Source: a virus
Strand: one strand, 5' to 3'
UHGV virus genome: UHGV-0075716
DNA length: 40,150 nt
Part shown: positions 2,342 to 8,439 of the stretch, piece after piece
How the letters are laid out: every line of letters starts with the position of its first letter
How positions within the stretch are numbered: position 1 is the first letter of the stretch
Program-made: the position numbers and the translations under genes
The notes under the pieces: generated by a model
Databases searched by the model: none
What the model was told of the DNA's origin: nothing
Seen by the model: the letters and a program-made list of their open reading frames with translations, nothing else

Positions 2342-5287
2342 TTAGTGCTTCCCTTCTATTAAGTCTAACCTAGCTTTTATTCTTTCTATTTCTCTGCGCT
2401 GCCATGCCGCCTCGATATAGAATAAGAGATCAGGTCTGACCCCCCATCTAGATCCTGCTGGCGTTATTTCAACGCGCTCAATGATGTCTTCTATTACCAT
2501 CACTGGATTATCATCCTCATCAACAATGATGCTCCCGTCATTATCAGTCAGCGGCATTTCCCTTTGGCCAGTAATGACGTCATCATATACTGCGGGATAA
2601 TCGTCATAGCAAAGAAAGGCATAGCGGCATGTTGTGCTTTCTTCTTCCATGAGTCCGTGAGAAATAAGAACATCACGAAGTTGCTGCGCGATTACACCAT
2701 GATGTATCCTCGCCCCTTCTTCCCCCTTTATAGCGACAGCGTTCAGCCATTTATAAGCGATATACCTGACGTCACCCCAGGCATCCAGCAATGCTTCGTC
2801 AGGAGAGACCGGCTCTGTCTTTAATGTTCCGTCACTGGTAACCACAGGATTGGAGCCAAGATAAACTGTCGAGAACCTGTTTCCCGGACCACCAAGAGCA
2901 TTTACATTATCAAGATAAGGTTTAACATCTCCGTTCTCAAAAAGATGTTCGAGTGCGTTATATACCGCGCGACGTGGAGTACTGCTTCCGGAACCATGCA
3001 ACGTTATCATTGCACCATCTGCTGAAGACGTTGTTTCACCGCCGCTAACGATTAATCTCTGAGCGGTAACATCATCAGACGGTACTTTCTTCGCAATAAT
3101 GGCGTAATTACCCTCAAGTTTGACTTCCGCGCGAACTTGTCCTGATGTACCTGCATGGACAGTCAGTGACTGGACGGCAACATCATCTGTGAAATCAACG
3201 GGTACAGGAACCGTCCTCACGCCTGACGTCGACATAAAAGTAGGAAGCGTTCTGTTAGGAGTGGCTCCGTAGACAAAATCCCTTGAAACAAATTCTTCCT
3301 GTTTAATTTTCACCCTGAAACAATACAAATCAGCCGGGTGACCATCGTGAACATAAGGATATTTTCTGTTGTTATCCCCTATGCTCCATGGGTTTAGAAA
3401 ATCTTCCCCACCGAAAATGTAGTACAGCCAGTTGTCTTTGATACAAACTGAACCAACACCAACCGCAGAGTTAACTATTCCGCCCTGATAAATCTGATCA
3501 GTAACATTAACCCACTCTACATTATCCAGACTCCACTCATTGACGTTAACTCTGGTCATAAATGTTCTTGGATAATTTCCTGCATAACGGTTATCAGGTT
3601 CTCCTCCTTCCCACTCACCAAATGCGCGCTCACTGCCAAAAATAACCAGCTCATCGCCAACTTTGGCAAAAGGAAGGTTTGAGTGATGAACATTATTTGG
3701 GAAGCGAAGAGAATTCCATGATGTACCTAAATCAGAGCTTCTGTGCAATGAACTACCGGGTTGAGTACTTAATGTCCCCCTGGTCGTCAGATACAGAATG
3801 CCATCATAATATTTTACACATGGCTCAGATGCATTCGCCTCATATTCTGCAGGTATGCGTCTGCGAACAAAGCTACCAGGAGAACCGAAAGCATCAGAGA
3901 AATAGAGTATCCCAAGCTCGCGTGGACCAATATCACCATTATGGTAGCCAACAGCAAAACTGTTATCGCTAATCGTCGCAAAACTGTGAATCTCAGTAAC
4001 AGGAGTGCTTCCGTCAACAAAAGAAGGAATAGTTCCAAGACTGGTTTTTCTCCATGGTGACGAGTGAAATGATGTGCCAAAACTCCAGTATCTACCCTCG
4101 TTATTCTGATCCACATCCTGGGTATTTTGCGTCGTAACTGTAAAGGTATTTTTATCAATAACAGTAGTCACCGTCATATTCCCGGTAACATCTGTAACAC
4201 CAGAGTTTGAGAAGTTGACAAAATCACCAGCAAATAATCCGTGATCAGTAATGCGAATATAAGCGACTTGCTGATTTGCTGCTTTCGTTATACCACCATA
4301 AACGCGAAGGCTGCGACTCATTGGGCGATCCCACAACTCTGCAACCTGCAGTTTATTTCCTCTCACGGTCCGCGTCTCAATTACAGCAAAAAGGCGATTT
4401 CTGACAACCCCCATACTCATGCAGTGATAGTTAACTGTGGGATAGTTTTCATGTAAATCTGTAAGCCATTCCGGCGTTGTCCAGGTCTTCCCGTCATCTC
4501 CTGAGCGAACCCATGCAACATGGAGGTTATTTACACCATGGCGGTCTCCAGCCATAAAAGGCGCATAGATGACATTGTCATATACAAACGTTTTATCCTG
4601 CGTCCAGGCGTTGTACCACGGTGTATCTGTAATTTTAAATAACTCTCCCTGGATAAAATCTTCAGAAGCATAAAAAAGAGGCTGACCCGGTATTCTCTCA
4701 AATAAAAAACGAGCATTTTTAAATCGACTGACATCTGGAAGAGTTGATACTTTAAAAGTAAGCCCTCGCCCATCTATCTTTTCACCACCTGTTGCAACAG
4801 AAAGTAATTCTGATAGAGCTGATGTATCATCATGAACACCATCACCAATAGCCCCCCAACCTCTTACATCATAACTGTCTCTCCATCTTGCTATCTGAAG
4901 TTTTGGGTATTTATTCGCTCCATCTGGGTCTTCTAATTGCTGCCGTAGTTGATCTGGGTCATACTTCAGCACATTAGGAAAATAGAACTGCTGCGCACCA
5001 TACGCATCATAAACAGCCATAGAATGGCCTTGCACGGTAACGAATTTGGCAATCTGTCCGTTATATACAGGATATCCAGCAGCGTTAATGATGATTGGTT
5101 GAGAAACAGGAACGTGAGAACCGTCTTCGTTCTCCACATAAGCCTGAATCTGGTTTTCAGGATTTACAGGGTCAGTATCAATTTTACCGATATAAATTTT
5201 GCCATTAGCTACGGCTTTAAAAGAACGCGCCATAGTGAAGAGTTGCGAAGGCATCGATACAATCACATTGGCTGTAATGTCTGTCAT
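2342..5287 (-). CDS. Tailspike: P22 gp9-type head-binding N-terminus fused to endosialidase (sialidase beta-propeller) with C-terminal intramolecular chaperone domain
   Basis: N-terminus [11 protein letters not shown]...[14 protein letters not shown]...VLKYDPDQ resembles P22 tailspike head-binding domain; Asp-boxes SGDDGKTW and SSDLGTSW; C-terminal ...VVTSDGTLK...[12 protein letters not shown]... resembles autocleaving chaperone domains. Confidence 0.85.
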
Positions 5288-5409
5288 TTAATTTGCTCCA
5301 GATACAAGGAATCGCCGAAGCATGGCTACGGTGAATTTTGGGCATAAAAAAACCCAGCCGAAGCTGGGTCGTTGCGTTGGTTATTGACCTACACTTTTCG
5401 TGCAGGTAG

Positions 5410-6333
5410 TTAAAGTTTTATTGAGTGGCACGCTCTATCACGTATCGCTGCGAATGAAGCTATCTCTTTAAGTGCCCAGCTTTGCTCAGCCATTAAATGG
5501 CGAAGTGCTTTTAGTTCAGCTCTTACTGCTGAAACGTCATACCCCGCTTTTGTCAGAATATTGATTAGTTTATACGCCGGACTGCATTCAACGAGTGCGC
5601 TGCGGTCAAGAGCAACAGTATCACCGCATTGCTGCCTGATAATGGCGTAAGGTGCATTTTCAGCAAACCATGAAATCGGGAAGTTAATATCCAGTTTTGG
5701 CGCTGGTAACTCTTCTTGTTTGCCAATGAACTCACCTTCAAGTGGAACTCGAGCTGCAAGTGACAGTGCTTCGGTGAACTGCTCCTCACTGATTTCTTTG
5801 TACGAACATCCAAAATGGGATTTCAGTGAGGACCACATGGTGATCATCGCCTTAGCCTGTTTTTCTTTTGGCAGAGACTGACCGCGACTCATGACGAGTT
5901 GTTTAATGGCTTCCTGCTGTTCAGTGGTGATTTTACCCGGCAACGCCTTTTTAGCTTTGCGTGGGTTAACTACATGACCTTTAGTCCAGTACTCGTATAG
6001 CACATCGTCACACTCTTCCTGATACTGGATTACCTTGTCGCGGATTTCAGGACGGACTTTGTTTGGCTGAATGCTTGAAAGCCAAGCCGCAAACTTACGA
6101 AAGGCAAGGCATATCATTAACTGTTTACCGCCAGCAGAAGGTATTTCGATTTCCGAAATACCTTTGACAAATCTCTGTTTTAATTTAACAAATTGAGCAG
6201 CCCAAACCATACCCATGCCTTCTACAACGGGTTTCATAGGAACGTAAGGTTCATTGTTAATGCTGACCAAAAAGAGATTTGTTCCGTGGAATGGAACGTT
6301 GATTGTATGTTCTGCAATTGCTACACTCGTCAT
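5410..6333 (-). CDS. ant: Antirepressor Ant (AntA N-domain plus KilAC-type C-domain)
   Basis: 307 aa; position downstream of arc and upstream of tailspike as in P22 immI; N-terminal pattern similar to P22 Ant. Confidence 0.8.
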   Translation of the reverse strand: MTSVAIAEHTINVPFHGTNLFLVSINNEPYVPMKPVVEGMGMVWAAQFVKLKQRFVKGISEIEIPSAGGKQLMICLAFRKFAAWLSSIQPNKVRPEIRDKVIQYQEECDDVLYEYWTKGHVVNPRKAKKALPGKITTEQQEAIKQLVMSRGQSLPKEKQAKAMITMWSSLKSHFGCSYKEISEEQFTEALSLAARVPLEGEFIGKQEELPAPKLDINFPISWFAENAPYAIIRQQCGDTVALDRSALVECSPAYKLINILTKAGYDVSAVRAELKALRHLMAEQSWALKEIASFAAIRDRACHSIKL

Positions 6334-6407
6334 GTCGTTAATTCCTATGCGTGGTTTTACGATACCGAAGCCCTGACTGTTACCGCAGTTGGGGCTTCAC
6401 TGTTTTG
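6332..6407 (+). ncRNA. Candidate sar-like antisense sRNA covering the ant start/RBS
   Basis: Sigma70-like promoter TTGATT(6299-6304)-17 nt-TACACT(6322-6327) on the strand opposite ant; imperfect hairpin 6367-6398 followed by T-rich tract; transcript would be ~75 nt and antisense to the ant RBS. Confidence 0.4.
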
Positions 6408-6566
6408 ATTTCTTTGCCGCATCAAGCATCACTTCTGAAAACGTGCGCTTGCCACTGAATACTCTTTCTCTTCTCAATTTTTCGTTCGTGCCAAATGATT
6501 CGCCATGAACAAAATTTGGTCTTAAAATGGTAATCGCAATCTCTTTGACTACTGCATCCAAGCGAA

Positions 6567-6719
6567 TCACACCGTTACCCCCTCTCTCTTCAGGCTGTCT
6601 ATCAGGCGCTTGATAACCTCTGAGTTAAACGACCTGCACTCTTCCTTTGCCCTGCTACCGATAGCATCCTTTAACGACTGCGGCATCCTTACCAAAATCC
6701 TACTTATTTCTTTCTCCAT
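6567..6719 (-). CDS. arc: Arc-type ribbon-helix-helix repressor (start at internal ATG 6719, ~50 aa)
   Basis: MEKEISRILVRMPQSLKDAIGSRAKEECRSFNSEVIKRLIDSLKREGVTV; RSFNSEV motif like P22 Arc (NGRSVNSEI); GGAGG 6 nt upstream of ATG. Confidence 0.8.
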   Translation of the reverse strand: MEKEISRILVRMPQSLKDAIGSRAKEECRSFNSEVIKRLIDSLKREGVTV

Positions 6720-6757
6720 GTTACCCTCCCCACAAACAACTCTTTCCGAATACAAAA

Positions 6758-6813
6758 GATAGCAAAGTGAGTATATCTAGTCAAAATTTTTTTGCATACA
6801 CTTTGATATCAAA
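6758..6813. promoter_or_regulatory. arc-mnt divergent control region with candidate operators
   Basis: TAGC...ATCTA inverted half-sites at 6758-6782 and a perfect 12-bp palindrome TTTGATATCAAA at 6802-6813, 20 bp upstream of mnt. Confidence 0.35.
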
Positions 6814-6833
6814 TTGAATACCAAAGGTGTGAT

Positions 6834-7082
6834 ATGGCAAAGGGTGTGTCAATTTCTCCAACTACGGTAAGAATCCCTGAATCTTTACGCGAGGCTCTTT
6901 CTGTCAGAGCATCAAAAAATGGTCGCTCTGTTAACTCCGAGATCGTCATGATTTTGCAAGCCGCGATTGATGAAGATAGGTCGCCAAAGTCAGTTGAGTC
7001 ATTTGCTCAGCAAGAAGCTGACAAATTCAAAGAGGCGCTGCTTGAGACGCTAAAGACCATGTATGGTAAGGATGAAAAATAA
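6834..7082 (+). CDS. mnt: Mnt-type ribbon-helix-helix repressor
   Basis: 82 aa; KNGRSVNSEIVMILQAAI and C-terminal KFKEALLETLKTMYGK resemble P22 Mnt (ANGRSMNSEL..., ...VFDTLKDLYKK). Confidence 0.85.
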   Translation: MAKGVSISPTTVRIPESLREALSVRASKNGRSVNSEIVMILQAAIDEDRSPKSVESFAQQEADKFKEALLETLKTMYGKDEK

Positions 7083-7618
7083 TGCTGCACACAATTCATT
7101 TCTTATGCCCCGTTAACACTGCCACTGTTGGGCAACTTCAGAACCACTGTCTCACCGCATTATCTCAGGGCGCAACTGAATTAAATATCCATATATCAAG
7201 TCAGGGAGGGGAAACTGCCGCTGGCTTTACTGCGTATAACTTTCTTAAGTCACTCCCTGTTACCGTTAGAACTCACAACATAAGCAATGTTGAATCCATA
7301 GCTAATATCGTTTTCCTGGCTGGCTCAGAACGTTTCGCAAACCCATTATCAAGATTCCTGTTACATCCTCTATTATGGGGCTTTGCCACCCCAGCCGCCG
7401 ACCATGCCAGATTGAGAGAGTACGGGAAATGCCTCGATAACGATCTTGATCGCTTCGTTGAGACGTTCAATATCGACATCGGAACCCATATTAGGTGGGA
7501 ATCCCTGATAGCAGACTCGACCATTTTGGATGCTAACAAGGCTCTTGAGCATGGCATAATTAATTCCATAAAAACTGCAAGGCTGGTATCCAATCAGGCA
7601 AACTGGTGGGTTGTTTGA
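7082..7618 (+). CDS. ClpP-family (S14-like) serine peptidase homologue, translationally coupled to mnt
   Basis: Gap-free match to ClpP core: ISSQGGETAAGFTAYNFL...VTVRTHNISNVESIANIVFLAG versus INSPGGVITAGMSIYDTM...[20 protein letters not shown], Ser aligned; His in LLHPL; Asp later. Start overlaps mnt stop (TAATG). Confidence 0.7.
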   Translation: MLHTIHFLCPVNTATVGQLQNHCLTALSQGATELNIHISSQGGETAAGFTAYNFLKSLPVTVRTHNISNVESIANIVFLAGSERFANPLSRFLLHPLLWGFATPAADHARLREYGKCLDNDLDRFVETFNIDIGTHIRWESLIADSTILDANKALEHGIINSIKTARLVSNQANWWVV

Positions 7619-7643: not shown

Positions 7644-7676
7644 AAAAAACCCACCTGACGGTGGGTTTCATTTCTT
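7644..7676. terminator. Bidirectional rho-independent terminator between the ClpP-like gene and the lipoprotein gene
   Basis: A-run, CCCACC-TGAC-GGTGGG hairpin, T-run. Confidence 0.7.
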
Positions 7677-8094
7677 AATCTTGCTTCGTAGAAGGTATAA
7701 GAGATGCATTTGCCTCTTTTGGCTTCAATGTATACATCCCACCATTAAATGGATCAACAGCAAGCCAACCGATTAACCCACCAAACACAAGGTTTCCACC
7801 AATATACCAACCATTAGCATTGGCTTTGATTGGCAGGGTAACTGGTTCGTACCCATCCTTTTCCATAGTGATCTGGTAGCTCTTTTTGCCAAAATAACTA
7901 CCATCTGACTTGGCAAGAGTTACTCCTTGTGGAGTCTTGCCTTGCGCAACAATCACGCCTGATTCATCTTTTACCTTAAAGCTCGCACCGGAAGGGTTGC
8001 TGTTCACTTGCACAAGTTGCGTTTCATCACCAACAATAGTTGCGCACCCAGATAACATCATAGCGCCAGCAACGACGCCAATAATCCTCTTCAT
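7675..8094 (-). CDS. Lipoprotein (signal peptide with lipobox LSGC), function unknown
   Basis: MKRIIGVVAGAMMLSGCATIV...; start at internal ATG 8094; Gly-rich C-terminal segment. Confidence 0.7.
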   Translation of the reverse strand: MKRIIGVVAGAMMLSGCATIVGDETQLVQVNSNPSGASFKVKDESGVIVAQGKTPQGVTLAKSDGSYFGKKSYQITMEKDGYEPVTLPIKANANGWYIGGNLVFGGLIGWLAVDPFNGGMYTLKPKEANASLIPSTKQD

Positions 8095-8211
8095 ATCAAT
8101 TTCCATATTTAAAAAACCGGAAACATCCTAATGACAAACCATTCAAATGTGAAGTAGGCAAAAGATGTTTGCTTTTTTCATGGTATCCTGCTCAAAACTA
8201 AGGAGGTTGGT

Positions 8212-8439
8212 GTGAAGCGATGGTTCCTCATAATTACTGTTTTCGCGATCATTTACACTATTTTCCCTGCATTAAAAGCACCAATGCAAATAATTTCGCT
8301 TGCAATAATTGCAATTGGTGCTTTCATTGCAGTAGCCGTACTTGTGTTTAAGGTTTTAAAGTTTTTAGTTTGGCTATCAAAAGACGATGGATGCAAAGTT
8401 CATCAAGAAAAAGAAGGCAAAATAACCAAAGTTGACTAA
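8212..8439 (+). CDS. Small hydrophobic membrane protein (two predicted TM helices)
   Basis: GTG start with AAGGAGG 5 nt upstream; AT-rich; two long hydrophobic stretches. Confidence 0.5.
   Translation: MKRWFLIITVFAIIYTIFPALKAPMQIISLAIIAIGAFIAVAVLVFKVLKFLVWLSKDDGCKVHQEKEGKITKVD

What the first reader, a model, noticed from the sequence alone, without database searches (positions are those of the whole stretch)
6834..7618. ClpP-family serine peptidase gene translationally coupled to the mnt repressor gene
The 178-aa ORF aligns without gaps to the ClpP catalytic core over ~40 residues, with the nucleophilic Ser in the same position (VESIA vs AASMG), a His in LLHPL and a downstream Asp. Its ATG overlaps the mnt stop (TAATG), so it should be expressed from the mnt promoter in the lysogen. 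A ClpP-like protease as cargo of an immI maintenance operon is not a feature I know from P22. It could be a lysogen-expressed exclusion or defence function, or a regulator of Ant or repressor stability.
Basis: partly seen in the sequence, partly recalled or inferred. Interest (0 to 1): 0.7.

Follow-up and report, generated by a model that had tools for sequence, protein, structure and literature searches.

The report
Prophage-borne short ClpP behind mnt
A P22-like E. coli prophage carries an intact gene for a shortened ClpP-type protease subunit joined to the end of its maintenance-repressor gene mnt, so lysogens probably make an extra ClpP that could alter the host's Clp protease; what it does for the lysogen is untested.

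Summary
ORF 7082-7618 (178 aa) starts in the stop codon of an Mnt homologue (TAATG). It scores 47 bits against Pfam CLP_protease (cut-off 20.2). Its model (pLDDT 91) superposes on ClpP structures.

The nearest solved relative is PpClpP1 of Pseudomonas plecoglossicida (PDB 9UXT; E 4e-35, TM 0.93). That protein is an N-terminally truncated ClpP with a wide-pore tetradecamer and weak peptidase activity. It does not bind ClpX, but forms mixed tetradecamers with canonical ClpP that raise ClpXP activity.

Ser72 and His95 are invariant. The proposed Asp is not: the canonical position is Ser here and never Asp in 110 relatives.

The gene is a ~560-bp cassette between the mnt stop and its terminator. 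It occurs in 128 of 5,426 complete E. coli genomes and is under purifying selection (dN/dS 0.08). Relatives at 52-74% identity are lone, opposite-strand genes at other prophage cargo sites without any mnt, which argues against a role specific to immI. Pseudomonas orthologues are chromosomal.

Best reading: cargo expressed in the lysogen that encodes an accessory ClpP subunit. A defence role is possible but unsupported (no PADLOC match). New member of a known kind in an undescribed context; interest about 0.5.

The parts
5410..6333 (-). ant (antirepressor), part of the immI region that hosts the finding
   Evidence: Pfam P22_AR_N, E 6.9e-40. PHROG anti-repressor Ant, E 1e-68.
6335..6401 (+). 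sar antisense RNA of immI
   Evidence: Rfam RF00262, 77.7 bits against a gathering score of 43, E 9e-16, full-length match.
6567..6755 (-). arc (Arc repressor). The mechanical ORF starts at a TTG; RefSeq calls a 50-aa product in near-identical prophages, which would start at the internal ATG (about 6719).
   Evidence: Pfam Arc, E 1.5e-11. RefSeq 'Arc family DNA-binding protein', 153 nt, in S88.
6756..6833 (.). Divergent Pant/Pmnt control region. It holds an 18-nt-arm palindrome at 6790-6825 (candidate operator) and a promoter-like site on the minus strand at 6784-6756.
   Evidence: Inverted repeat I1. TTGACT-17-TATCTT on the minus strand. The position corresponds to the annotated Pmnt/Pant/arcO of epsilon34. 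Function is inferred, not shown.
6834..7082 (+). mnt homologue (82-aa ribbon-helix-helix repressor)
   Evidence: Pfam Arc, E 3e-10. Full-length match to phrog_2685, E 8e-32, which is the family of epsilon34 mnt (row H9). 37.5% identical to P22 Mnt.
7067..7072 (+). Shine-Dalgarno-like TAAGGA inside the 3' end of mnt, 9 nt before the ClpP-like ATG
   Evidence: Read directly from the sequence.
7082..7618 (+). Short ClpP-family peptidase gene (178 aa). Ser72 codon 7295-7297, His95 codon 7364-7366. No N-terminal axial region. C-terminal NWWV motif.
   Evidence: Pfam CLP_protease, 47 bits. PDB 9UXT, E 4e-35. AF2 pLDDT 91. Foldseek TM 0.93 to 9UXT and about 0.8 to E. coli ClpP. dN/dS 0.08.
7647..7668 (.). 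Stem-loop terminator, apparently bidirectional. It ends the mnt/ClpP-like transcript, and on the other strand the convergent lipoprotein gene.
   Evidence: 9-bp GC-rich stem followed by a T-rich tail. On the minus strand it is followed by TTTTTTAT. It is homologous to the annotated Rho-independent terminator that abuts mnt in epsilon34.
7675..8106 (-). Convergent neighbour: a 143-aa predicted lipoprotein, homologue of epsilon34 gp15. It is not part of the operon; it marks the downstream edge of the inserted cassette.
   Evidence: phrog_6823, E 9e-86. Weak PEGA match. Homology to epsilon34 resumes at window position 7644 (row H8).

Best explanation
The 178-aa ORF is a functional gene for an N-terminally truncated ClpP-family serine peptidase subunit of the PpClpP1 type. 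It has a Ser72-His95 catalytic pair and no canonical Asp. It lacks the axial loops, and the ClpX/ClpA docking pocket is not conserved.

It is a discrete cargo cassette of about 560 bp placed between the stop codon of mnt and the mnt terminator of a P22-like prophage. It is therefore transcribed from Pmnt and translated by coupling with mnt while the phage is a prophage. This expression step is inferred.

By analogy with PpClpP1, the product should form ClpP-like heptameric rings. These could stack with themselves into a weakly active, wide-pore tetradecamer. They could also stack with a ring of the host's ClpP into a mixed tetradecamer that ClpX or ClpA can only reach through the host ring. 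Either would change how much, or what, the lysogen's Clp machinery degrades. This step is also inferred.

The benefit to the lysogen or phage is not established. Candidates are altered stress or virulence physiology, or interference with incoming phages.
For: Identity:
- Pfam CLP_protease above threshold.
- PDB 9UXT hit at E 4e-35 over residues 3-175.
- Confident model (pLDDT 91, pTM 0.88) with TM 0.93 and rmsd 1.7 A to 9UXT, and about 0.8 to E. coli ClpP.
- Ser and His are invariant.

Functional gene:
- dN/dS 0.08 against the Pectobacterium orthologue.
- 47 of 50 close copies are intact.
- Present in 128 of 5,426 complete E. coli genomes.

Cassette and operon:
- A one-base overlap with the mnt gene in about 50 loci, in my own ORF calls, upstream ORFs of several lengths and many different downstream neighbours.
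- Homology to epsilon34 resumes at the terminator.
- An identical mnt allele exists without the gene.
- sar, arc, ant and mnt show a standard immI region.

Cargo nature:
- Relatives at 52-74% identity are lone, opposite-strand genes between Rz and terS, or among tail and baseplate genes.
- A promoter-like and a terminator-like site flank one of them.

Mechanistic lead, from PMC12900304:
- PpClpP1 forms a homotetradecamer with a 42.7 A pore.
- Ser and His are essential; the third residue is dispensable.
- It shows no ClpX pull-down.
- It forms a stable heterotetradecamer with canonical ClpP that has higher ClpX-dependent activity.
- Residues that form the docking pocket in E. coli ClpP are polar here (the residue list is from memory).
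Against: - Nothing about oligomeric state, activity or interaction with E. coli ClpP was or could be tested here. Identity to PpClpP1 is only 38-45%.
- PpClpP1 orthologues in Pseudomonas are chromosomal genes beside KGG stress proteins. Their physiology may not transfer to a phage copy.
- No plus-strand promoter passed the consensus scan in the control region. Expression in the lysogen rests on the P22 paradigm for Pmnt.
- The only phenotype on record is for a whole prophage (phiv205-1: biofilm and adhesion). Its authors attributed it to another gene.
Confidence: 0.55

Rival explanations
1. It is a dedicated anti-phage or superinfection-exclusion effector. On this reading a wide-pore, unfoldase-independent peptidase made in the lysogen degrades unfolded or ejected proteins of incoming phages, or triggers abortive infection.
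For: - It lies in the mnt-to-gene-16 interval, which varies greatly between P22-like prophages. Elsewhere that interval carries a YafO-family toxin pair or a Panacea-domain protein, and in P22 it carries sieA (established knowledge).
- The 186-aa E. coli relative sits beside a 182-aa protein with an RNKRSH (Rx4H) motif and a weak Abi_2 match, E 0.042.
- All phage-borne relatives are oriented like lysogen-expressed cargo.
Against: - No PADLOC match for this protein or three relatives.
- No conserved partner or sensor gene across contexts.
- The closest characterised relative is a housekeeping-type paralogue in a chromosomal stress locus.
- The Abi_2 hit is below threshold.
Confidence: 0.2
2. 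It is a regulator internal to immI. The peptidase would control the stability of Ant, Arc or Mnt (or of the prophage repressor) and so tune induction or immunity.
For: In every copy at 79% identity or above (about 50 loci, in E. coli and Pectobacterium, and also in a lambda-like phage where the whole ant-arc-mnt-ClpP block sits between tail genes L and K) it overlaps mnt by one base.
Against: - Relatives at 52-74% identity are in prophages with no mnt, arc or ant nearby.
- P22, epsilon34 and a prophage with the identical mnt allele work without it.
- The Ant type differs between carriers: P22_AR_N here, Bro-N in Pectobacterium.
- Without unfoldase docking, selective degradation of folded regulators is unlikely unless host ClpXP is recruited.
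Confidence: 0.1
3. It is a prohead or head-maturation protease, as annotated in GenBank for phage phiv205-1.
For: - Best PHROG is phrog_94, 'head maturation protease', E 1e-20.
- NCBIfam Clp_rel_HeadMat, E 3e-13.
- The GenBank label.
Against: - The NCBIfam score is 49.9 against a cut-off of 120.
- The match covers only the generic ClpP core.
- The gene is on the opposite strand to, and far from, the head genes. It sits in immI or at lysis/terS or tail cargo sites.
- P22-type capsids mature without a protease (established knowledge).
- The nearest structure is a cellular ClpP paralogue, not a phage protease.
Confidence: 0.02
4. It is a catalytically crippled decoy subunit that poisons or sequesters host ClpP, protecting phage proteins from ClpXP or ClpAP.
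For: - No canonical Asp.
- PpClpP1 is 13-fold less active than canonical ClpP and does not bind ClpX.
Against: - Ser and His are kept in 108 of 110 representatives, which argues that catalysis is under selection.
- The PpClpP1/P2 mixed complex is more active, not less.
Confidence: 0.08
5. It forms a toxin-antitoxin or addiction pair, with the ribbon-helix-helix protein as antitoxin and the peptidase as toxin.
For: The layout resembles type II TA operons: a small RHH gene overlapping a downstream gene. The Mnt-like protein also matches FitA-like RHH.
Against: - The RHH protein is an Mnt homologue in a full immI region with sar, arc and ant.
- Most relatives of the peptidase have no RHH partner.
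- An IS-disrupted phage (E212) keeps the peptidase without mnt.
Confidence: 0.03

Closest known systems
PpClpP1 of Pseudomonas plecoglossicida (PDB 9UXT; PMC12900304, 2026)
   Same: - Full-length homology (E 4e-35) and the same fold (TM 0.93).
- The same length class (178 versus 183 aa).
- The same missing N-terminal axial region.
- Ser and His conserved, with a non-acidic residue at the Asp position (Ser here, Pro there).
   Different: - Only 38-45% identical.
- PpClpP1 orthologues are chromosomal, conserved across Pseudomonas and flanked by KGG stress proteins and DUF6555.
- This gene is prophage cargo fused to the mnt operon.
- Biochemistry is known for PpClpP1 only.
Accessory ClpP paralogues that form mixed tetradecamers (P. 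aeruginosa ClpP2, Listeria ClpP1/2, mycobacterial ClpP1P2)
   Same: A second ClpP isoform that relies on a canonical partner ring for unfoldase docking and tunes ClpXP output (PMC13056064; PMC12900304). The Listeria ClpP1/2 structure is among the top fold hits.
   Different: Those are host genes under host regulation. Here the extra isoform would be brought in by a temperate phage and expressed from a lysogeny-maintenance promoter. Hetero-oligomerisation with E. coli ClpP is not shown.
E. coli ClpP (peptidase family S14)
   Same: Same fold (TM about 0.8, 22% identity). Ser97 and His122 equivalents are present and the handle region is present.
   Different: - Lacks about 25 N-terminal residues of mature ClpP (the axial loop and gate).
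- Asp171 is replaced by Ser.
- Pocket residues Y60, Y62, F82, I90, L114 and L189 are replaced by N, H, S, H, N and K.
- It has an extra C-terminal NWWV motif.
P22 immI region (ant, sar, arc, mnt) and the neighbouring sieA-type cargo slot
   Same: ant, sar, arc and mnt are all present, in P22 order and orientation.
   Different: - P22 and epsilon34 have no gene between mnt and its terminator.
- This prophage also has an extra 57-aa ORF between arc and ant.
ClpP-related phage head-maturation proteases (NCBIfam NF045542, phrog_94)
   Same: They share the ClpP core.
   Different: The score is below the family cut-off. The gene is not linked to head genes, is not fused to scaffold or capsid, and is on the opposite strand to the late genes.

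Membership tests
ClpP / peptidase S14 (Pfam PF00574) | Profile match above the curated threshold | tested here: met
   47 bits against a gathering score of 20.2, E 3.4e-12, residues 24-165.
ClpP / peptidase S14 (Pfam PF00574) | ClpP fold (alpha/beta head plus handle) | tested here: met
   AF2 model with pLDDT 91. Foldseek TM 0.77-0.81 to E. coli, S. aureus and T. thermophilus ClpP, and 0.93 to 9UXT.
ClpP / peptidase S14 (Pfam PF00574) | Nucleophilic Ser and general-base His at the canonical positions | tested here: met
   Ser72 aligns with Ser97 and His95 with His122. Both are invariant in 39 relatives and present in 108 of 110 relatives.
ClpP / peptidase S14 (Pfam PF00574) | Catalytic Asp (E. 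coli Asp171) completing the triad | tested here: not met
   The aligned residue is Ser146. The column is S/A/P in close relatives and G/A/P/S, never Asp, in 110 representatives. In PpClpP1 this position is Pro and is dispensable.
ClpP / peptidase S14 (Pfam PF00574) | N-terminal axial loops and gate that contact the unfoldase | tested here: not met
   The protein begins at the first core strand. About 25 residues of mature E. coli ClpP have no counterpart.
ClpP / peptidase S14 (Pfam PF00574) | Hydrophobic pocket that receives the ClpX IGF or ClpA loops | tested here: not met
   Y60, Y62, F82, I90, L114 and L189 of E. coli ClpP align with N, H, S, H, N and K. The list of pocket residues is from memory, so this is indicative. 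It agrees with the failed ClpX pull-down of PpClpP1.
ClpP / peptidase S14 (Pfam PF00574) | Assembly into two stacked heptameric rings | not testable with these tools
   Only monomer prediction was available. The homologue 9UXT is a tetradecamer.
PpClpP1-type short ClpP clade | Full-length sequence and structural similarity to PpClpP1 | tested here: met
   E 4e-35 over residues 3-175. TM 0.93, rmsd 1.7 A, 38% identity.
PpClpP1-type short ClpP clade | About 180 aa, N-terminal truncation, Ser-His with a non-acidic third residue | tested here: met
   There are 63 clusters (50% identity) at E<=1e-30, most of them 180-195 aa long.
PpClpP1-type short ClpP clade | Mixed tetradecamer with the host's canonical ClpP that alters ClpXP activity | not testable with these tools
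   Known only for PpClpP1/P2. Needs co-purification with E. coli ClpP.
ClpP-related phage head-maturation protease (NCBIfam NF045542) | Score above the curated cut-off, and linkage to portal, scaffold and capsid genes | tested here: not met
   49.9 bits against a cut-off of 120. The gene lies in immI or at lysis/terS or tail sites, on the strand opposite the late genes.
P22-type immI region | ant, sar RNA, arc and mnt in divergent arrangement | tested here: met
   P22_AR_N, E 7e-40, and Arc domains. sar RF00262, 77.7 bits. Mnt homology to P22.
Known anti-phage defence systems (PADLOC-DB v2) | Match to any defence-protein model | tested here: not met
   No hit at E<=1 for this protein or for three relatives.
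Type II toxin-antitoxin pair (RHH antitoxin plus toxin) | The two genes stay paired across the family | tested here: not met
   Pairing holds only in the clade at 79% identity or above. Relatives at 74% and 52-60% have no RHH neighbour.

The most novel reading that the evidence does not exclude
A temperate phage supplies its lysogen with its own ClpP ring. That ring stacks on host ClpP, so the prophage reprogrammes the host's ClpXP/ClpAP machine from the lysogeny-maintenance promoter. The payoff would be phage-specific, for example faster destruction of replication or ejection proteins of superinfecting phages, or control of induction. On this reading the whole enterobacterial branch of this ClpP clade consists of phage-spread proteolysis modifiers.
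Probability: 0.2. Interest if true: 0.8.

Novelty: new member of a known kind. Interest (0 to 1): 0.5.

Why it matters
Accessory ClpP isoforms are now known to retune ClpXP and shift virulence-related traits in Pseudomonas (PMC13056064, PMC12900304). If temperate phages spread such an isoform among E. coli, Klebsiella, Pectobacterium and Pantoea, that would be a new route of lysogenic conversion that acts on host proteolysis. About 2.4% of complete E. coli genomes carry it, including ExPEC/APEC strains such as S88 and IMT5155.

The gene also shows a maintenance-repressor operon being used as an expression platform for cargo.

The database labels need correcting. 'Head maturation protease' is wrong for this gene, and 'ATP-dependent Clp protease proteolytic subunit' hides the fact that it probably cannot dock an ATPase by itself.

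The hypothesis can be tested directly, with reagents and assays already published for the homologue.

Tried and rejected
1. PADLOC scans of the protein, its neighbours and three relatives gave nothing.
2. Literature searches found no description of this gene in immI or in any prophage. The terms covered ClpP-like with anti-phage and prophage, prophage-encoded ClpP, P22-like with Clp protease and mnt, phiv205-1, and PhiR12. The one 'prophage-encoded clpP' mention concerns a Staphylococcus prophage and was noted only in passing.
3. I tested whether PpClpP1 itself is prophage-borne. It is not. Orthologues in the P. putida and P. fluorescens groups share a chromosomal KGG/DUF6555 neighbourhood.
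4. The head-protease annotation was rejected on score and context.
5. The toxin-antitoxin reading was rejected because the pairing is not conserved.
6. The consensus promoter scan found no plus-strand Pmnt, and the hits it did find are no more numerous than in shuffled sequence. Promoter assignment therefore rests on position and on the epsilon34 annotation.
7. I looked for model coordinates to measure Ser-His geometry. None were available to scripts.
8. The neighbour of the 186-aa E. coli relative (a 182-aa protein with an Rx4H motif) gave only a sub-threshold Abi_2 hit. It is not used as evidence.
Full report
**What is there**

The window is a complete P22-like prophage. It runs from integrase through tailspike, immI, ejection proteins, head genes and lysis genes to the early region.

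At the finding's coordinates there are two plus-strand ORFs: 6834..7082 (82 aa) and 7082..7618 (178 aa). The TAA stop of the first (7080-7082) shares its last base with the ATG of the second (7082-7084). A TAAGGA Shine-Dalgarno sequence sits 9 nt upstream, inside the first gene. A GC-rich stem-loop with T-rich tails on both strands follows at 7647-7668.

The surroundings are a standard immI region:
- ant, 5410..6333 on the minus strand (P22_AR_N, E 7e-40);
- the sar antisense RNA, 6335..6401 (Rfam RF00262, 77.7 bits);
- arc (Pfam Arc, E 1.5e-11);
- a 78-bp divergent control region with an 18-nt-arm palindrome;
- the 82-aa ribbon-helix-helix protein, which is 37.5% identical to P22 Mnt over residues 13-79 and occupies the position of mnt.

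**Is it a ClpP?**

Yes.
- The 178-aa product scores 47 bits against Pfam CLP_protease, where the gathering score is 20.2.
- A sequence search of the PDB gives one outstanding hit: 9UXT, 'Clp protease', E 4e-35 over residues 3-175. Canonical ClpPs follow at about 1e-8.
- An AlphaFold2 model built on 39 relatives is confident (pLDDT 91, pTM 0.88).
- Foldseek places the model on 9UXT with TM 0.93 and rmsd 1.7 A, and on E. coli, Listeria, Thermus and S. aureus ClpP with TM about 0.8.

**Catalytic residues and other ClpP features**

In an alignment with E. coli ClpP, Ser72 (VESIA) falls on Ser97 and His95 (LLHPL) on His122. Both are invariant in 39 close relatives. Both are present in 108 of 110 representatives of the wider short-ClpP clade.

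Asp145 aligns with Arg170 of E. coli ClpP. The residue under catalytic Asp171 is Ser146. That column is S/A/P in close relatives and G/A/P/S, never Asp, in 110 representatives.

Three further differences from canonical ClpP:
- The protein starts at the first core strand, so the roughly 25-residue axial-loop and gate region of mature ClpP is missing.
- The residues I recall as forming the IGF-loop docking pocket of E. coli ClpP (Y60, Y62, F82, I90, L114, L189) are N, H, S, H, N and K here.
- A C-terminal NWWV motif is conserved in the family and has no ClpP counterpart.

**What the solved homologue tells us**

9UXT is PpClpP1 of Pseudomonas plecoglossicida (PMC12900304). That paper reports the following:
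- The protein is an N-terminally truncated ClpP with a Ser-His-Pro 'triad'.
- It forms a homotetradecamer with an unusually wide (42.7 A) axial pore.
- Its peptidase activity is 13-fold weaker than that of the canonical paralogue.
- Ser and His are essential, while the third residue is dispensable (about 60% activity retained).
- It does not pull down ClpX.
- It forms a stable heterotetradecamer with canonical ClpP, and that complex raises ClpX-dependent degradation.

A 2026 study of P. aeruginosa ClpP2 makes the general point that alternative ClpP isoforms tune ClpXP assembly and phenotype (PMC13056064). These papers are the basis of the mechanism I propose. None of it was tested for the phage protein.

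**Is it a real, maintained gene?**

- Against the Pectobacterium orthologue (79% amino-acid identity), dN/dS is 0.08.
- Of 50 close copies collected, 47 are intact at 178 aa.
- The gene is in 128 of 5,426 complete E. coli genomes (133 places). All copies are chromosomal and at least 95% identical. Where rows were listed they are annotated 'ATP-dependent Clp protease proteolytic subunit' beside an 'Arc family DNA-binding protein'.
- It is in six GenBank phage records.
- A relative is encoded in 124 IMG/VR viral contigs.

**Anatomy as a cassette**

In epsilon34 the mnt gene abuts its Rho-independent terminator and gene 15. Homology between the window and epsilon34 resumes at window position 7644, which is the terminator (row H8). 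An E. coli prophage with a 100% identical mnt allele lacks the gene, and homology ends at the mnt stop. The ClpP-like gene is therefore an insertion of about 560 bp, exactly between the mnt stop codon and the terminator.

In about 50 loci with copies at 79% identity or above, the one-base overlap with the mnt gene is kept. The upstream mnt-like ORFs differ in length (78-97 aa in my own ORF calls) and the downstream neighbours vary widely. BLAST matches that begin inside mnt, at query positions about 168 to 209, point to recombination breakpoints within mnt.

The same ant-arc-mnt-ClpP block also sits between tail genes L and K of lambda-like phages PhiR12_1, 4 and 5.

In phage E212 an IS21-type remnant has replaced ant, arc and mnt but left the ClpP-like gene.

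**Contexts of more distant relatives**

These contexts matter most for the interpretation.
- Copies at 74% and 52-60% identity, in Klebsiella, E. coli, Pantoea, Erwinia, Proteus and Rahnella prophages, have no RHH neighbour.
- They are lone genes on the strand opposite the late genes. They lie between Rz/lysozyme and the small terminase, or among baseplate and tail-fibre genes.
- One Klebsiella locus has a promoter-like site and a terminator-like site flanking the gene. These are consensus matches only.
- Copies at 38-48% identity in Massilia and other Betaproteobacteria are chromosomal.
- PpClpP1 orthologues across Pseudomonas are 183 aa and chromosomal. In both groups examined they share KGG stress-protein and DUF6555 neighbours, with no phage genes.

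The picture is a cellular accessory-ClpP clade. Its enterobacterial branch travels as prophage cargo, and in the E. coli/Pectobacterium lineage it has been wired into the mnt operon.

**Most likely mechanism**

Shown:
- a ClpP-fold Ser-His peptidase subunit under purifying selection;
- inserted as a cassette in the mnt transcription unit;
- a family that is prophage cargo at several sites.

Inferred:
- Transcription from Pmnt and coupled translation in the lysogen. This rests on the P22 paradigm that Mnt is made in lysogens, on the overlap and Shine-Dalgarno sequence, and on the single downstream terminator.
- Ring and tetradecamer assembly.
- No autonomous docking of ClpX or ClpA.
- Mixed tetradecamers with host ClpP that change Clp-dependent proteolysis. 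This rests on homology to PpClpP1 and on the missing N-terminus and pocket residues.

I put about 0.9 on the molecular identity, about 0.7 on lysogen co-expression and about 0.4 on the mixed-complex mechanism. That gives about 0.55 for the package.

**Rivals**

- A defence or exclusion role is possible. The mnt-to-gene-16 interval is a cargo hotspot: S88 has a YafO-family toxin pair there, and another strain has a Panacea-domain protein. However, there is no PADLOC match, no conserved partner, and the characterised relative is a housekeeping-type paralogue.
- A role specific to immI is weakened by the many relatives that lack immI.
- The GenBank label 'head maturation protease' fails on score (49.9 against a cut-off of 120) and on context.
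- A toxin-antitoxin reading fails because the pairing is not conserved.
- A pure decoy is unlikely given near-universal retention of Ser and His.

**Novelty**

I found no paper describing this gene in immI or as prophage cargo. The PpClpP1 paper does not mention phages ('prophage' occurs 0 times).

The only related phenotype is for a whole prophage. phiv205-1 carries a 99.4% identical copy and raises biofilm formation and adhesion in APEC DE205B, which the authors attributed to another gene.

I file it as a new member of a known kind, the PpClpP1-type accessory ClpP, in a new and interesting context. Interest is about 0.5. The gene is real, widespread and unstudied, and a published homologue makes it directly testable. 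Its biological role remains open, and the protein family itself is not new.

Noticed in passing
window 6397-6570 (-): A 57-aa ORF lies between arc and ant. It overlaps the arc stop and the 3' end of sar. It is conserved in 14 related loci, and RefSeq annotates a protein at the same position in S88 and OkiPb01711 (WP_000620145.1, hypothetical). Epsilon34 has no gene annotated between arc and ant, and to my knowledge neither does P22.
   Followed up: no
window 7675-8106 (-): A 143-aa predicted lipoprotein (signal peptide with LSGC lipobox; weak PEGA and Cor-like N-terminal matches; phrog_6823; homologue of epsilon34 gp15) is convergent with the ClpP-like gene. It is a candidate exclusion or surface protein.
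   Followed up: partly
window 8212-8439 (+): A 75-aa ORF with two hydrophobic segments lies between the lipoprotein gene and the gene-16 homologue. It has only a marginal PADLOC '4TM effector' match (E 0.05).
   Followed up: no
L118 4834-5858 (E. coli S88); L117 3574-4667 (E. coli OkiPb01711): The interval between mnt (or the ClpP-like gene) and gene 16 is a hypervariable cargo slot. S88 carries a YafO-family toxin plus a partner there. OkiPb01711 carries a Panacea-domain protein. Other prophages carry a 355-aa P63C-domain protein.
   Followed up: partly
L102 3374-3922 (+): In lambdoid E. coli prophages the 186-aa relative (52% identity) is preceded, 78 nt upstream on the same strand, by a 182-aa protein. 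That protein has an RNKRSH (Rx4H, HEPN-like) motif and a sub-threshold Abi_2 match (E 0.042). The two may form a cargo module.
   Followed up: partly
L111-L116, around 5001-5552: PpClpP1 orthologues in the P. putida and P. fluorescens groups share a conserved chromosomal neighbourhood of KGG general-stress proteins and DUF6555. This suggests a stress or stationary-phase role that the 2026 structural paper does not discuss.
   Followed up: partly
L003 4500-5020 (phage E212): What I read as the C-terminal end of an IS21-family IstB helper gene replaces ant, arc and most of mnt. The intact ClpP-like ORF that follows is not annotated in the GenBank record.
   Followed up: partly
L002 3606-5618 (phage PhiR12_1): The whole ant-arc-mnt-ClpP block is inserted between tail genes K and L of a lambda-like siphovirus, so the immI module together with its cargo moves between phage types.
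   Followed up: partly
window 7082-7618, residues 100, 103, 140, 169: Among 47 intact close copies there are 11 protein alleles. Recurrent changes are G100C/V, T103S, E140A and V169A. Residues 100-103 lie in the low-confidence handle-strand segment of the model.
   Followed up: no
window 7082-7618, residues 174-177: A C-terminal NWWV motif (W175 and W176 nearly invariant in close relatives, and common in the wider clade) has no counterpart in canonical ClpP. In the model it forms a terminal beta-strand. Its role is unknown.
   Followed up: no
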